Shown: positions 5,901 through 14,900, counted from the stretch's first letter. The stretch: 64,000 nucleotides of DNA from Escherichia coli (GCF_965641715.1 NZ_OZ282453.1); one strand, 5' to 3'. Numbers: made by a program.

Positions 5901-8900
5901 AGGCTTTTTCTATCGCCTGACGTCACGTTATCGCCATTATGCCGCCTTTGAGCGGGCAACCTTCGAACAGGGCAAGCCGACACAGCTGCTGATGCTGACA
6001 GATAAGCAAATCGCCGATTTCCAGAAACATTATCAGACTGAAGCGGAGCGTTTTCATATTCTGCCACCGGGGATTTATCCTGATCGTAAATATAGCCAGC
6101 AGCCAGCTAATAGCCGTGAAATCTTCCGTAAGAAGAATGGAATAACCGAACAACAATATTTATTGTTGCAGGTCGGTTCAGACTTCACGCGTAAAGGTGT
6201 CGATCGTTCCATTGAAGCACTTGCTTCGTTACCGGATTCGCTGCGCCACAACACATTGCTATATGTTGTTGGGCAGGATAAACCGCGAAAATTTGAGGCG
6301 CTGGCAGAAAAACGCGGCGTGCGCAGTAATGTTCACTTCTTCTCGGGGCGCAACGATGTCTCGGAATTAATGGCGGCGGCGGATTTATTACTGCATCCTG
6401 CCTACCAGGAAGCGGCGGGAATTGTGCTGCTGGAAGCGATTACTGCAGGATTACCGGTACTAACAACAGCCGTTTGTGGCTATGCGCATTATATTGTCGA
6501 GGCCAATTGCGGCGAGGCTATTGTTGAGCCATTCCGCCAGGAAACATTGAATGAGATTTTACGCAAAGCGTTAACGCAATCTTCATTGCGCCAGGCCTGG
6601 GCGGAAAATGCGCGACATTATGCTGATACACAAGATTTATACAGTCTGCCAGAGAAAGCGGCGGATATCATAACGGGTGGTCTGGATGGTTGAACTTAAA
6701 GAGCCGTTTGCCACGTTATGGCGCGGTAAAGATCCTTTTGAGGAAGTTAAAACCTTGCAGGGTGAGGTATTTCGTGAACTGGAAACTCGCCGTACTCTGC
6801 GCTTTGAAATGGCGGGCAAAAGCTATTTTCTCAAATGGCATCGCGGCACGACCCTGAAAGAGATAATCAAAAATTTACTCTCATTGCGGATGCCAGTATT
6901 AGGCGCAGACCGCGAATGGAATGCGATTCATCGACTGCGGGATGTCGGCGTTGATACTATGTATGGGGTGGCATTTGGCGAAAAAGGCATGAATCCGCTG
7001 ACCAGAACTTCATTTATTATTACCGAAGATCTGACACCAACCATAAGTCTGGAAGATTACTGTGCTGACTGGGCGACTAACCCTCCAGATGTTCGCGTAA
7101 AGCGTATGCTTATTAAGCGTGTCGCGACGATGGTGCGCGATATGCATGCTGCGGGCATTAACCACCGTGACTGTTATATCTGTCATTTCCTGCTGCACTT
7201 GCCTTTTTCCGGTAAGGAAGAGGAGTTAAAAATTTCGGTAATTGACCTGCACCGTGCGCAGCTTCGCACGCGCGTTCCACGTCGTTGGCGCGATAAAGAT
7301 CTTATTGGGCTTTATTTTTCTTCGATGAATATCGGCCTGACTCAGCGGGATATCTGGCGGTTTATGAAAGTGTATTTTGCCGCCCCGCTTAAAGACATTC
7401 TCAAGCAGGAACAAGGACTGCTGTCGCAAGCAGAAGCAAAAGCCACAAAAATCAGGGAAAGAACGATTCGAAAATCGTTGTAATTTCCGGAGAGAAATAT
7501 GAGTGCCCACTATTTTAATCCACAAGAGATGATCAATAAGACAATCATCTTCGATGAAAGGCCAGCGGCGTCAGTGGCATCATCATTCCATGTTGCTTAT
7601 GGCATTGATAAAAACTTTCTTTTTGGTTGTGGTGTTTCAATCACGTCAGTTTTGTTACATAACAACGACGTGAATTTTGTTTTCCACGTTTTTATTGATG
7701 ATATCCCTGAAGCCGATATCCAGCGTTTAGCCCAATTGGCGAAAAGCTATCGTACCTGTATCCAGATCCATCTGGTAAATTGTGAACGGCTTAAGGCATT
7801 ACCGACGACCAAAAATTGGTCTATTGCCATGTATTTCCGTTTTGTAATTGCAGATTACTTTATTGATCAACAAGATAAGATCCTTTACCTGGATGCTGAT
7901 ATCGCCTGTCAGGGAAACTTAAAGCCGCTGATAACAATGGATCTTGCCAATAACGTTGCTGCTGTTGTTACTGAACGCGATGCTAACTGGTGGTCGTTAC
8001 GGGCTCAAAGTCTGCAGTGTAATGAACTTGAAAAGGGTTACTTTAATTCAGGTGTCCTGTTAATTAATACACTAGCGTGGGCGCAGGAGTCCGTTTCTGC
8101 TAAAGCGATGTCGATGCTTGCTGATAAAGCCATCGTTTCCCGTTTAACCTATATGGATCAAGATATCCTTAATCTTATCCTGTTAGGGAAAGTTAAATTC
8201 ATTGATGCTAAATACAATACGCAATTTAGTTTAAATTATGAATTAAAAAAATCATTTGTTTGTCCAATTAATGATGAAACCGTATTAATTCATTATGTCG
8301 GCCCGACAAAACCCTGGCATTACTGGGCCGGTTATCCAAGTGCGCAACCTTTTATCAAAGCCAAAGAAGCATCGCCCTGGAAAAATGAACCGTTAATGCG
8401 GCCAGTTAACTCAAACTATGCTCGTTATTGCGCCAAGCATAATTTTAAACAAAATAAACCAATTAACGGGATAATGAATTATATTTATTATTTTTATTTA
8501 AAGATAATAAAATGAAATTGAGAAAAGTTAAATGAATGAATTTATAAAAGAACGGTTTTCGTATTTAGCAGATAATAAAAAAGAAAACGCCCCAGAGCTA
8601 AATGTTTCCTACGGTATCGATAAGAATTTTTTGTATGGTGCTGGTGTTTCAATTTCTTCCGTTTTGATTAATAATTCAGATATTAATTTTGTCTTTCATG
8701 TTTTCACTGATTATGTGGATGATGATTATTTAAAGTCATTTAATGAAACAGCAAAACAATTTAATACCTCAATTATTGTATATTTAATTGACCCCAAATA
8801 CTTTGCTGATCTGCCGACGTCACAGTTTTGGTCGTACGCGACATACTTCAGGGTATTGTCCTTTGAATATCTGAGTGAAAGTATTTCCACACTGCTGTAT

Positions 8901-11900: not shown

Positions 11901-14900
11901 ACGACTAGGAGAAGATCTGGATTTTATCTATCGACTGCTAATTACATGCGATATGTATGCGGTTCCATATTATATGTATAAGCATAACTATAGAGAAAAT
12001 TCCTTAATGAACTCATGTAGAACCATCACTCATTATCGACATGAGTCATTTGCGCACGAAAGAATCTACTCTTCTGTGATGCAGTTATACAAAGGTAACC
12101 GGAAAGAAGAAATTCATACATTATTGAGTCAAAATAGAGCTTATCATAAAACTCGTTATTTATGGAATGTTCTACTTAATGGTGATTTTAAACTATTGAA
12201 TCAATTAGTTGAAAGCAATGAAAAAGAATTAAAAGATTGTAATCTTCCTGGCAAGAGAGATAAGAGACGAGCAAAAATATTAGCATCAAAAAATTATATT
12301 CTCTGGAGGATGGTAAGACTGGTAAATAGAAAAAAGAATAAACGTTAGATCTTGCATTAAATAACCCATCCTCGTAGCATAGGTTGAAATTATATGTCGT
12401 TTTGTTGGAATGAAATTAATTCTTGTATAAAGTCTTTAATTCTCATATTATGTATTTTTTCTTTAATGACTTTGTCTTTATGGGATGATGTTGCAACAAA
12501 GTTTCTTCATGCAGCTGGAATTATATCTGCATTGTATTTTCTTGCGACACCAAAAAAAACAATAAGTAATAATCCTACTTTGTTAATTTTCATCTCATTA
12601 TGTCTTTTGGGTATCGTAAATATCATCTGGTATTCACATTATAAAGTTTCAGGCTCTGTTTATACCAATGCATATCGTGGCCCAATGGAAACTGGAAAAA
12701 TTGCCTTGTGTAGCGCTTTTATTTTCTTAGTTCTTTTTGCTAAAAATGAGATGAGAACAAAAATAAAATTTGGGAAACTAATTCTGTTCGCATCCCTGGC
12801 AACGCAGTTACTTTTTTTTGCGCATGCCATGTGGCAACATTTCTATTTAAACGTCGACCGTGTTGCATTATCAGCTTCCCACGCTACAACAGCAGGCTAC
12901 ATCATCCTTTTTCCTTCTTTACTGGCATCAATTCTCATTTTAAAATCCGACTTTAGACATAAAACAACATTATATACAATTAACTTCATGCTTAGCTTAT
13001 GCGCTGTCATAGTAACTGAGACGCGTGCAGCCATATTAGTGTTTCCATTCTTTGCGTTAATATTAATCGTAATGGATAGTTATATTAATAAGCGAATTAA
13101 TTATAAGTTATATTGTTTTATTGCGATTGCATTATTAGCAGGTGTATTTTCTTTTAAAGATACATTGCTTATGAGAATGAATGACTTAAATAACGATTTA
13201 GTTAATTATTCGCATGATAACACCAGAACTTCAGTCGGTGCCCGTCTGGCAATGTATGAAGTTGGCTTAAAAACATATTCTCCAATAGGACAATCACTGG
13301 AAAAACGTGCGGAAAAAATACATGAACTAGAAGAAAAAGAGCCTAGATTGAGTGGCGCTTTACCCTATGTAGATTCTCATTTGCATAACGATCTCATAGA
13401 TACGTTATCAACGCGTGGTATTCCTGGAGTTGTATTAACAATTTTAGCATTTTCAGCAATACTCATATATGCCTTAAAAACTGCTAAAGAACCTTATATT
13501 TTAATCTTGCTTTTTTCACTACTGGTAGTAGGCCTAAGTGATGTAATACTCTTTTCTAAACCGGTTCCGACTGCTGTGTTTGTCACCATAATATTGCTTT
13601 GTGCTTATTTTAAAGCACAATCGGACCAATGTTTATTAGAGAAGTAATGAATATGTGAAATAAAATCAGCAAGGAAGCTGATTTTATTTCAAAATTATCT
13701 ATTAAAGAGTTGTAATTTAAATCATAGCAGCGTTTTCAGCGTTTTCTTCAATGAACCGCTTAACAGCATTTGCTGTCAATTGAGACAACTCATTCCCCGG
13801 AGCCCTACAAACCATCTGATTCTTCCCATATCCGCCAATTAATCCCGGATCGGTTGGTCCATAAACCGTGATATTGGGTCTATCCAGTGCCGCCGTTAAA
13901 TGGCTTAACCCCGTATCCACCGACACTACAAATTTAGCCCCGGCCAGCACGCGGGCAACGCCTTCCAGACTCATCTTCGGCAATACTTCAACATAAGCAA
14001 ATCCTTCCGCCAGTCGTTTCGCCCGTTCTTCCTCATGCGGCGCGCCCCACGGAAGTTTAATCCGTATTCCTGAATCAGCCAGTAAACCAATCAATTCTCG
14101 CCAGTGTTCTTCCGGCCAGTGTTTATCATCACGGGTCGTTGCATGAAGAAATACGGCATATTCGCCAGCATCTGTAGGCAGGTTCGTCAGGAAATGCTGT
14201 GCAATAGCATAATCGCCCTGGGTTTGCGGTTTGCTATAGCCCAGACTTTTGGCAAACAGTTCGCGGGTGCGTTCTACGGCGTGCTGCTGTTTTGCAATAT
14301 GATGCTTACGATTGTAAAACAGACTGGCTAAAGGTTCGCGAGCGGTTTGCCAGTCCATTCCATGCTTTACGCCATGCGCCAGACGCGTCACCAGCGCCGC
14401 GCTTTTTACCAGCCCCTGAGCGTCGATAACTGCGTCATAGTTCTCTGCTTGTAGCGCTTCACGAAACGCTTTGCGTTCCGCTTTTATGGGGGCCGAGAAC
14501 CAGGCTTTACGCCAGCGACGTATTGCCACAGGAATAACTCGCTCAACGGCAGCGTGCCAGGAAGGAATCTGTGCGAACCCTTCTTCCACCACCCAGTCAA
14601 ATTTAATCCCTGGAATTGCCTGCTGGGCATCAGTGAGTGCGGGCAACGTATGGAGAACATCGCCCATCGACGATGTTTTAACGATCAAAACCCGCATCCG
14701 TCAGGCTTCCTCTTGTAACAATAGCGCGTTGAGTTCTTCCAGTACGCGCTGGGGAGTAATGTCGATCAAGCTCTGGTGATAACCCTCTGCAGCGTCACCT
14801 TTACGCACTTTGTGATAGCCGGTAATCAGACGGATCACGCGCGCTTTATGGGATAGCGGCGGTGTGAAGTCCGGGCTACTTGGACCATACAGGGCAACCA

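What the first reader, a model, noticed from the sequence alone, without database searches (positions are those of the whole stretch)
7499..13647. Outer-core LPS genes look like the R1 core type, not K-12, and are AT-rich
Between waaP and waaC the content is GT8, GT8, waaY kinase, GT8, GT2, ligase. K-12 would have waaS, waaB, waaZ here, which are absent. Three GT8 genes plus a terminal GT2 gene fits the R1 arrangement (waaO-T-Y-W-V-L); R4 would carry a different beta-galactosyltransferase (WaaX) instead of the GT2 gene. The block is visibly more AT-rich than the flanking waaQGP and waaCF genes, consistent with horizontal exchange of this cassette. R1 is the core type I recall as most common in extraintestinal isolates, which fits the adhesin island.
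Basis: partly seen in the sequence, partly recalled or inferred. Interest (0 to 1): 0.4.

Follow-up and report, generated by a model that had tools for sequence, protein, structure and literature searches.

The report
Ordinary R1-type LPS outer-core gene block

Summary
Window 7499-13647 carries six intact + strand genes: GT8, GT8, WaaY kinase, GT8, GT2 and an O-antigen ligase. They lie between waaP and a convergent waaC.

**Core type is R1.**
- All six proteins are 98.7-99.4% identical to a reference R1 locus.
- The GT2 protein (WaaV) has no counterpart in K-12, R2, R3 or R4 loci.
- The ligase is only 35% identical to R4 WaaL.
- K-12 WaaS/B/Z/U, R2 WaaK and R4 WaaX have no hit anywhere in the 64 kb.
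- In-silico PCR with the nine published typing primers gives only the R1 product, at exactly 842 bp.

**AT-richness is real but not R1-specific.** The block is 35.2% GC against 51.6% for the rest of the window, about -7.8 SD. All five core types have blocks of 33-35% GC.

**Cassette exchange is supported.** The flanks are 99.4-100% identical to an O157:H7 (R3) locus. Identity collapses about 50 nt into waaO and resumes inside the 3' end of waaC.

**The ExPEC or adhesin argument is not supported.** R1 is also the commonest type in commensals. The nearest genome is a commensal baboon isolate of phylogroup E.

The feature is already known and of low interest.

The parts
4426..4464 (+). JUMPstart element with ops site (GGCGGTAG at 4453-4460) in the waaQ leader. 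It is the RfaH loading site for the long waaQ operon.
   Evidence: Rfam RF01707, 55.2 bits against a gathering score of 35, E=2e-10; ops motif.
4514..7483 (+). waaQ (4514-5572), waaG (5569-6693) and waaP (ORF 6677-7483; annotated start 6686 in relatives). These inner-core and first-glucose genes are shared with R3 and R4 loci.
   Evidence: NCBIfam RfaQ and RfaP. 99.4-100% protein identity to the R1 and R4 references and 98.5-100% to the R3 reference, but only 73-90% to K-12 and R2.
7499..8515 (+). waaO: GT8 enzyme that adds the second hexose (alpha-1,3 Glc on GlcI) of the R1/R4 outer core.
   Evidence: Pfam GT8 + GT8C. 99.4% identical to R1 and R4 WaaO, 51% to K-12 WaaO, 55% to R3 WaaI. Sugar and linkage come from literature knowledge, not tested here.
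8532..9527 (+). waaT: GT8 enzyme, alpha-1,2 galactosyltransferase that adds GalI to GlcII.
   Evidence: Pfam GT8 + GT8C. 99.4% identical to R1/R4 WaaT, at most 44% to GT8 proteins of other types.
9537..10229 (+). waaY: heptose II kinase.
   Evidence: Pfam WaaY 427.7 bits. NCBIfam RfaY 397.5 bits against a cutoff of 248. 98.7% identical to R1/R4 WaaY, 52-53% to the K-12, R2 and R3 alleles.
10255..11280 (+). waaW: GT8 enzyme, alpha-1,2 galactosyltransferase that adds the terminal GalII. Its last ~30 codons lie beyond the R1/R4 junction.
   Evidence: 99.1% identical to R1 WaaW, 93.5% to R4 WaaW. Nucleotide identity to R4 ends at about 11188. PGAP name in relatives.
11365..12348 (+). waaV: GT2 enzyme, the R1-specific beta-1,3 glucosyltransferase. 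It adds the side-branch glucose to which O antigen is ligated.
   Evidence: Pfam Glycos_transf_2. 99.4% identical to the R1 reference, with no hit in K-12, R2, R3 or R4 loci. 99.0% nucleotide identity to the first 399 nt of waaV of E. coli DSM13127, an R1 strain. Function as stated in PMC3526765.
12394..13647 (+). waaL: R1-type O-antigen ligase, the last gene of the waaQ operon. It is on the same strand as waaQ, as in R1 and R4 and unlike K-12, R2 and R3.
   Evidence: Pfam Wzy_C. 98.8% identical to R1 WaaL, 35% to R4, 30% to K-12, no hit to R2 or R3. Orientation in the references.
11124..11965 (.). R1-diagnostic amplicon (waaW-waaV), 842 bp.
   Evidence: Primers R1R4-R (11124-11143, +) and R1-F (11947-11965, -) match with 0 mismatches. 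No other typing primer matches within 3 mismatches.
13656..13691 (.). Perfect 15-bp-stem hairpin between the convergent waaL and waaC. It is a candidate two-way terminator.
   Evidence: Terminator-like scan. RNA fold -20.5 kcal/mol, z = -6.15 against shuffles. Function is inferred.
13717..14697 (-). waaC. Its last ~16-27 codons are core-type specific, and the right-hand junction of the variable block lies inside them.
   Evidence: NCBIfam RfaC. Identity to R3 resumes at about 13765 and to R4, K-12 and R2 at about 13793-13797. C-terminal tails compared.

Best explanation
Window 7499-13647 is the type-specific part of a standard, intact R1-type waa (LPS core) locus of Escherichia coli: waaO-waaT-waaY-waaW-waaV-waaL.

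**How it most likely works.**
1. The genes form the distal two thirds of the long waaQ operon. That operon is read from the promoter region upstream of waaQ, through a JUMPstart/ops leader that recruits the RfaH antiterminator. This lets transcription run through 9 kb of AT-rich DNA.
2. After WaaG places GlcI on heptose II, WaaO adds GlcII (alpha-1,3).
3. WaaT adds GalI (alpha-1,2) and WaaW adds GalII (alpha-1,2).
4. WaaV adds a beta-1,3 glucose branch on GlcII.
5. WaaY phosphorylates heptose II.
6. WaaL, in the periplasm, ligates undecaprenyl-PP-linked O antigen to the WaaV-added glucose.

**Population genetics.** The block is one of five alternative cassettes at this chromosomal site. The cassettes are AT-rich in every type. 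They are swapped between lineages by homologous recombination in the conserved flanks (waaP and the start of waaO on the left, the waaC 3' end on the right), not by a mobile element.

**Shown here:** gene content, order, orientation, intactness, type assignment, composition, junction positions and the JUMPstart element.

**Inferred from literature:** the sugar and linkage specificities, RfaH dependence, and that the strain actually makes an R1 core.
For: **Anatomy.** ORFs and domains.

**Type assignment.**
- The six proteins are 98.7-99.4% identical, at full length, to a reference R1 locus. WaaV is absent from the four other types. WaaL is 35% or less identical to any other type.
- Reverse tblastn of all type-specific proteins finds no WaaS, WaaB, WaaZ, WaaU, WaaK, WaaX, R2 WaaL or R3 WaaL anywhere in the window. 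The R3 GlcNAc transferase gives only a weak cross-match (24% identity, E 9e-7) inside waaG.
- In-silico typing PCR gives only the R1 pair, 842 bp as published. The same primers type the five reference loci correctly, with products of 842, 1442, 1021, 380 and 610 bp.
- The first 399 nt of waaV and waaW are 98.75-99.5% identical to those of the laboratory-typed R1 strains DSM13127 and ROAR340.

**Frequency.** All six exact protein sequences already exist in public E. coli assemblies. At least 80% of the block is found in 1825 of 5426 complete genomes at 95-99.4% identity.

**Regulation.** JUMPstart/ops. Hairpin after waaL.

**Composition.**

**Cassette junctions.** Identity to O157:H7 (R3) is 99.4-100% across waaQGP, falls at about 7548-7553 and returns at about 13765. 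Identity to R4 runs to about 11188 and returns at about 13794. K-12 and R2 diverge from about 4200.

**No mobility genes.** Every ORF of 80 aa or more that is not nested inside or antisense to a larger gene between 4.5 and 16.7 kb is a waa or rfaD gene.

**Function of WaaV and WaaX.** PMC3526765. Gene product names: PMC13293308.
Against: - Nothing in the sequence contradicts R1.
- The phenotype (a complete R1 core, ligation of O antigen) is not shown by sequence alone.
- The proteins differ from the chosen reference at 0.6-1.3% of residues. The exact WaaY variant is rare, seen on 3 contigs. A loss-of-function substitution cannot be formally excluded.
- The source genome itself is not in the complete-genome collection (best match 99.3-99.4%), so no curated typing of this very strain could be consulted.
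Confidence: 0.95

Rival explanations
1. The locus is R4 type. R4 shares waaO-T-Y-W with R1 but has the GT25 galactosyltransferase WaaX and a different ligase.
For: The first 3.7 kb of the block (waaO to most of waaW) is 99% identical to R4 loci (rows H23-H29).
Against: R4 WaaX has no hit in the window. The window's GT2 protein has no hit in the R4 locus, and the ligase is 35% identical to R4 WaaL. The R4-F primer is absent within 3 mismatches.
Confidence: 0.005
2. The locus is a hybrid or new core type with R1 architecture but an altered WaaV/WaaL module. This would resemble the R2/K-12 hybrids, or the divergent R1-like locus L008.
For: Hybrids exist at this locus (PMC13293308). A collinear locus with 73% WaaV and 80% WaaL was found in a public assembly.
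Against: In the window, WaaV and WaaL are 99.4% and 98.8% identical to ordinary R1 proteins and match published R1 strains. Nucleotide identity to R1 references is uniform at 98.0-99.8% across the whole block, with no internal drop.
Confidence: 0.02
3. The low GC marks a recent import of the R1 cassette from a foreign AT-rich donor, that is, a genomic island in the classical sense.
For: The block is 35.2% GC against 51.6% elsewhere, and GC3 is 27-37%. The boundaries are sharp.
Against: - All five alternative cassettes are 33-35% GC.
- An 82%-identical collinear R1-like locus, whose flanking genes are also diverged (92-94% aa), is 35.5% GC. The composition is therefore old and stable.
- There is no integrase, IS, tRNA or flanking repeat. 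The ORF list contains only waa genes.
- The junctions lie inside conserved genes, as expected for homologous recombination between E. coli lineages.
Confidence: 0.05
4. The R1 genotype is present but functionally silent, giving a rough or truncated core because of a point mutation. E. coli B is an example from memory: an IS1 in waaT truncates an R1 core.
For: Sequence alone cannot prove activity. The exact WaaY variant is rare.
Against: All six ORFs are full length with 100% coverage of reference proteins and no frameshift, stop or IS. Five of the six exact protein sequences recur on 31 to 1000 or more contigs.
Confidence: 0.03

Closest known systems
E. coli R1 core-type waa locus (prototype F470; also E. 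coli C/DSM13127, NCTC122, O145:H28, Shigella sonnei)
   Same: Gene order waaQ-G-P-O-T-Y-W-V-L converging on waaC. The six type-specific proteins are 98.7-99.4% identical. The diagnostic 842-bp amplicon, low GC and JUMPstart leader all match. Shigella sonnei members sit in the same 90% protein clusters for WaaO/WaaW (one cluster), WaaV and WaaL.
   Different: Only allelic differences of 0.6-1.3% at the protein level. There is also a two-copy 9-bp repeat in the waaC tail, where other R1 loci have one or three copies.
E. coli R4 core-type waa locus
   Same: waaQ to about codon 311 of waaW is essentially identical (99%). waaL has the same orientation, and the block is similarly AT-rich at 34.6% GC.
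   Different: R4 has GT25 WaaX (beta-galactosyltransferase) in place of GT2 WaaV. Its WaaL is only 35% identical.
E. coli R3 core-type locus (O157:H7)
   Same: waaQ, waaG, waaP and the intergenic leader are 99.4-100% identical at the nucleotide level. Even the first 50 nt of waaO are retained.
   Different: The outer-core genes are waaI-Y-J-D, with waaL on the opposite strand. The GT8 and WaaY proteins are 37-55% identical. There is no WaaV and no detectable similarity to the ligase.
E. coli K-12 and R2 (Salmonella-like) core loci
   Same: Same chromosomal site, same flanking waaA and waaC-F-rfaD genes, and similarly AT-rich blocks (33.2% and 35.3% GC).
   Different: They carry waaS, waaB, waaZ and waaU (K-12) or waaK (R2), all absent from the window. 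They diverge already from the waaA-waaQ intergenic region: waaQ 73%, waaG 88-90% and waaP 84% protein identity.

Membership tests
E. coli R1 LPS core type (waa locus) | Gene order waaQ-G-P-O-T-Y-W-V-L on one strand, convergent with waaC | tested here: met
   ORF map and domains. One-to-one full-length matches to the R1 reference locus L001 in the same order.
E. coli R1 LPS core type (waa locus) | Presence of waaV (GT2 beta-1,3-glucosyltransferase), the R1 determinant | tested here: met
   The 11365-12348 product is 99.4% identical to R1 WaaV and has no hit in the other four types. 99.0% and 98.75% nucleotide identity to the waaV 5' 399 nt of R1 strains DSM13127 and ROAR340.
E. coli R1 LPS core type (waa locus) | R1-type WaaL ligase | tested here: met
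   98.8% identical to R1 WaaL; 35% to R4, 30% to K-12, no hit to R2 or R3.
E. coli R1 LPS core type (waa locus) | Diagnostic PCR product (R1-F and R1R4-R primers, 842 bp) and no product for the other types | tested here: met
   In silico, both primers match exactly at 11124-11143 and 11947-11965, giving 842 bp. The seven other primers are absent within 3 mismatches. Positive controls on five reference loci.
E. coli R1 LPS core type (waa locus) | Core oligosaccharide chemistry Gal-a1,2-Gal-a1,2-[Glc-b1,3]-Glc-a1,3-Glc, or R1-specific antibody reactivity | not testable with these tools
   Requires LPS from the strain. The structure is quoted from literature knowledge and PMC3526765.
E. coli R4 LPS core type | waaX (GT25 beta-galactosyltransferase) and R4 WaaL | tested here: not met
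   No tblastn hit for WaaX in the 64 kb. R4-F primer absent. Ligase 35% identical.
E. coli K-12 LPS core type | waaS, waaB, waaZ and waaU present; waaL on the waaC strand | tested here: not met
   No tblastn hits for the four proteins. waaL is on the + strand. K-12 primers absent.
E. coli R3 LPS core type | waaI-waaY-waaJ-waaD(GlcNAc transferase), with waaL on the opposite strand | tested here: not met
   GT8 and WaaY proteins are 37-55% identical. The R3 GlcNAc transferase gives only a weak cross-match (24% identity, E 9e-7) inside waaG, and R3 WaaL gives no hit. R3 primers absent.
E. coli R2 LPS core type | waaB, waaZ, waaK and R2 WaaL | tested here: not met
   No tblastn hits. R2 primers absent.
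Classical mobile genomic island | Integrase, IS or tRNA boundary, or flanking direct repeats, together with atypical composition | tested here: not met
   The atypical composition is present. However, no ORF between 4.5 and 16.7 kb is anything other than a waa or rfaD gene or a short ORF nested inside one. Both junctions lie inside conserved genes. No dedicated repeat or tRNA scan of the junctions was run.

The most novel reading that the evidence does not exclude
The window may record a lineage-level core-type switch. Its waaQ-waaG-waaP flank is 99.4-100% identical to that of O157:H7 (R3). Its nearest complete genome is a phylogroup E baboon commensal, and in phylogroup E R1 makes up only about 2% of genomes. 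The R1 cassette may therefore have replaced an R3 cassette (or the reverse) fairly recently in a phylogroup E-like backbone. The crossovers can be mapped to about 50 nt inside waaO and to the last ~16 codons of waaC. A 50-nt out-of-frame waaO remnant in O157:H7 marks the left junction.
Probability: 0.35. Interest if true: 0.15.

Novelty: already known. Interest (0 to 1): 0.1.

Why it matters
The core type decides which sugar carries the O antigen. It also decides which core-directed antibodies and which LPS-binding phages can act on the strain, so a correct R1 call is useful annotation. It adds nothing new to biology. The R1 locus has been characterised since the late 1990s. It is the commonest core type (35% of 4,505 typed genomes in PMC13293308; 1825 of 5426 complete genomes here), and a typing tool already exists. 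The only mildly informative points are that R1 here sits in a backbone closest to phylogroup E and EHEC-like strains, where it is uncommon, and that the junctions of the cassette can be placed to within a few tens of bases.

Tried and rejected
- **Original PCR-typing paper.** I tried to read it from a remembered PMC id (I believe Amor et al. 2000) to use the classical primers. It is not held. I used the 2025 primer set instead.
- **First literature search.** It failed on a term that was too short, and one find call failed on syntax.
- **One script.** It failed because loci are stored several to a file and was rerun.
- **R4, R3, R2, K-12 and hybrid types.** Considered and rejected.
- **Recent foreign import as the reason for low GC.** Considered and rejected, because all five cassettes and a diverged R1-like locus share it.
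- **Other structured RNAs in 1-20 kb.** I looked with Rfam and found only JUMPstart.
- **Sigma-70 promoter and terminator scan.** It gave no more sites than shuffles (31 against 30.1; 6 against 8.9). It says nothing beyond pointing to the hairpin at 13656-13691.
- **WaaV homologue search.** It showed a graded series (73% down to 36%) in unnamed assemblies and Providencia, but no named donor.
- **Source genome.** I could not identify it: the best complete-genome matches are 99.3-99.4%.

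
Full report
**1. The observation**

Pfam assigns them as follows:

| Coordinates | Pfam assignment |
|---|---|
| 7499-8515 | Glyco_transf_8 + Glyco_transf_8C |
| 8532-9527 | Glyco_transf_8 + Glyco_transf_8C |
| 9537-10229 | WaaY |
| 10255-11280 | Glyco_transf_8 + Glyco_transf_8C |
| 11365-12348 | Glycos_transf_2 |
| 12394-13647 | Wzy_C (O-antigen ligase) |

NCBIfam identifies the neighbours as RfaQ, a GT4 protein (WaaG by position and by identity to the references) and RfaP upstream, and RfaC on the opposite strand downstream.

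The block is 35.16% GC. For comparison, waaQGP is 47.6%, waaC-waaF-rfaD is 52.1%, and the rest of the window is 51.6%. Non-overlapping windows of the same length average 51.6% (sd 2.1, minimum 46.9), so the block lies about 7.8 sd below them and is essentially the lowest-GC stretch of that length in the 64 kb. Third-position GC of the six genes is 27-37%, against 46-62% in the flanking genes.

**2. Which core type**

I assembled one reference locus for each of the five E. coli core types from annotated complete genomes:
- UTAK-3 (R1, L001)
- MG1655 (K-12, L002)
- O157:H7 TR01 (R3, L003)
- CFSAN064035 (R4, L004)
- M217 (R2, L005)

Their types were verified with the nine typing primers of Trofimova et al. 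2025 (PMC13293308, Table 2). Each locus gives only its own product, at the published size: 842, 1442, 1021, 380 and 610 bp.

The same in-silico PCR on the window gives only the R1 pair. R1R4-R sits at 11124-11143 and R1-F at 11947-11965, both without mismatch, giving 842 bp. None of the other seven primers is found, even with three mismatches.

Protein comparison agrees:
- The six products are 99.4, 99.4, 98.7, 99.1, 99.4 and 98.8% identical, at full length, to R1 WaaO, WaaT, WaaY, WaaW, WaaV and WaaL.
- The GT2 protein has no BLASTP hit in the K-12, R2, R3 or R4 loci.
- The ligase is 35% identical to R4 WaaL, 30% to K-12 WaaL, and undetectable against R2 and R3.

In the reverse direction, K-12 WaaS, WaaB, WaaZ and WaaU, R2 WaaB, WaaZ, WaaK and WaaL, R3 WaaL and R4 WaaX have no tblastn hit anywhere in the 64-kb window. 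The R3 GlcNAc transferase gives only a weak cross-match (24% identity, E 9e-7) inside waaG. The R4 locus carries a GT25 protein where the window has the GT2 gene.

The first 399 nt of waaV and waaW are 98.75-99.5% identical to those of DSM13127 and ROAR340. Those strains were typed R1 in the laboratory (Table S17 of the same paper).

All six exact protein sequences are already in public E. coli assemblies. Shigella sonnei sequences share the 90% clusters of WaaO/WaaW (which fall in one cluster), WaaV and WaaL. This fits the known R1 core of S. sonnei, which I state from my own knowledge.

**3. How common it is**

At least 80% of the block is found in 1825 of 5426 complete E. coli genomes (34%) at 95-99.4% identity. 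About 700 further genomes match only the first 60%, which is the R4 pattern. These figures agree with the published 35.4% R1 and 12.3% R4.

**4. How it works**

Shown here:
- The nine genes waaQ to waaL are closely packed on one strand, with small gaps or overlaps.
- They are preceded by a JUMPstart element with its ops site at 4426-4464 (Rfam 55.2 bits, gathering score 35; ops motif).
- They are followed by a perfect 15-bp-stem hairpin at 13656-13691, between the converging waaL and waaC (-20.5 kcal/mol, z = -6.15).

Inferred from established knowledge of the waa system, and from PMC3526765 and PMC13293308:
1. RfaH is loaded at ops and carries RNA polymerase through the long AT-rich operon.
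2. WaaO adds GlcII to the WaaG-added GlcI.
3. WaaT and WaaW add the two alpha-1,2 galactoses.
4. WaaV adds the beta-1,3 glucose branch on GlcII.
5. WaaY phosphorylates heptose II.
6. WaaL ligates O antigen to the WaaV-added glucose.

None of the enzymatic steps was or could be tested here. Their assignment rests on at least 98.7% identity to a reference locus of the R1 type, whose enzymes were characterised in the literature.

**5. AT-richness and cassette exchange**

The low GC is real but not a property of R1 alone. The corresponding blocks are 34.9% (R1 reference), 33.2% (K-12), 33.2% (R3), 34.6% (R4) and 35.3% (R2).

A collinear R1-architecture locus recovered from a public assembly (L008) is only 82% identical in DNA. 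Its WaaQ, WaaG and WaaP are 92-94% identical, its WaaV 73% and its WaaL 80%. It is still 35.5% GC. The composition is therefore an old, maintained feature of the outer-core region, not the footprint of a recent import.

Exchange of the cassette between lineages is nevertheless well supported. Junction positions against each type:

| Compared with | Identity holds up to | Identity returns at |
|---|---|---|
| O157:H7 (R3) | about 7548-7553, some 50 nt inside waaO (99.4-100% across 4501-7500) | about 13765, in the last codons of waaC |
| R4 | about 11188, near codon 311 of waaW | about 13794 |
| K-12 and R2 | about 4200, in the waaA-waaQ spacer | about 13797 |

The nearest neighbour also changes along the locus. 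UTAK-3 is closest inside waaV-waaL (99.4-99.8% against 98.0-98.6% for O145:H28 at 12001-13000). O145:H28 is closer in waaF (99.0-99.6% against 97.4-97.6% at 14501-15500).

There is no integrase, IS or other foreign ORF in the region, and the junctions lie inside conserved genes. So the mechanism is most likely homologous recombination in the flanks. This mosaic, nested organisation of R1, R4 and R3 against K-12 and R2 is textbook for this locus.

**6. The pathotype inference**

But R1 is also the commonest type in commensals (36.9%), in ETEC (65.9%) and overall. The authors conclude that, apart from EHEC with R3, core type is not strongly tied to pathogroup.

The only adhesin gene in the window is a 1629-aa YadA-like trimeric autotransporter at 32469-37358 (-), between lldP and yibL. 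Its positional counterpart is annotated ehaG in O157:H7. The remainder of the window is ordinary core chromosome, from mutM to lyxK.

The closest complete genomes are baboon commensals, pig isolates and O145:H28. The best one, PapRG-06-5, is listed as R1, phylogroup E, O83:H39 and commensal. R1 is uncommon in phylogroup E, at 2.3%. The core type therefore does not support an extraintestinal origin. If anything, the backbone points elsewhere.

**7. Verdict**

The finding is correct and fully explained by existing knowledge. This is an intact, standard R1-type outer-core and ligase gene block in the usual chromosomal position, with the usual composition and regulatory leader. Novelty: already known. 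Interest: low (0.1).

The most novel reading still open is that the window captures an R1-for-R3 (or reverse) cassette replacement in a phylogroup E-like backbone, with junctions that can be mapped to a few tens of bases. That would be a modest population-genetic note, not a discovery.

Noticed in passing
window 13717-13800 (waaC 3' end, - strand): The C-terminal tail of WaaC is core-type specific, because the right-hand junction of the variable block lies inside the gene. Within R1 loci a 9-bp unit (CAGCGTTTT on the + strand, encoding Ala-Glu-Asn) varies in copy number: one copy in UTAK-3, two in the window, three in O145:H28 RM12581. This gives WaaC proteins of 323, 326 and 329 aa.
   Followed up: partly
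window 7499-7548; L003 13001-13050: The O157:H7 (R3) locus retains the first 50 nt of the R1/R4 waaO gene, including its ATG, at 100% identity. This remnant is unannotated and out of frame with the annotated waaI start. It marks the left recombination junction (row H30).
   Followed up: partly
L008 1-9238 (Logan SRR22936684): A collinear waaQ-G-P-O-T-Y-W-V-L locus, only 82% identical in DNA to the window. WaaV is 73%, WaaL 80%, WaaQ/G/P 92-94%, and the block is 35.5% GC. It is an R1-architecture core locus in an unidentified relative of E. coli or a deep lineage, and possibly an undescribed core variant.
   Followed up: partly
window 16690-16902 (rfaD-kbl spacer): There is no htrL/yibB gene between rfaD and kbl, and HtrL has no tblastn hit anywhere in the window. 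The R1, R4 and R2 reference loci also lack it, whereas the K-12 and O157:H7 loci carry it.
   Followed up: partly
window 32469-37358 (-): A 1629-aa YadA-like trimeric autotransporter adhesin lies between lldP and a DUF3251 gene and yibL. Its positional counterpart is annotated ehaG in O157:H7, so it is not specific to extraintestinal strains. Identity to the best genomes drops here, and the alignment breaks into several pieces.
   Followed up: partly
window 7499-8515: NCBIfam and PGAP name this protein 'lipopolysaccharide 3-alpha-galactosyltransferase' (NF011718, 611 bits, above the cutoff of 461) with gene symbol waaO. In the R1 core the second hexose is glucose, so the product name is probably wrong for this allele. 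The basis is literature knowledge of the R1 structure.
   Followed up: no
window 1-25000 and whole window: No complete RefSeq E. coli genome matches the window better than 99.3-99.4%. The nearest are baboon commensals (PapRG-06-5, A30, PapRG-04-4), pig isolates and O145:H28. PapRG-06-5 is typed phylogroup E, O83:H39, ST8525. The source strain seems to belong to a sparsely sampled phylogroup E-like lineage.
   Followed up: partly
window 4001-5000: The waaA-waaQ spacer and the 5' part of waaQ are also AT-rich (41-42% GC). This is where K-12 and R2 loci begin to diverge from the R1/R3/R4 group, at about 4200. There are therefore two nested levels of variable block.
   Followed up: partly
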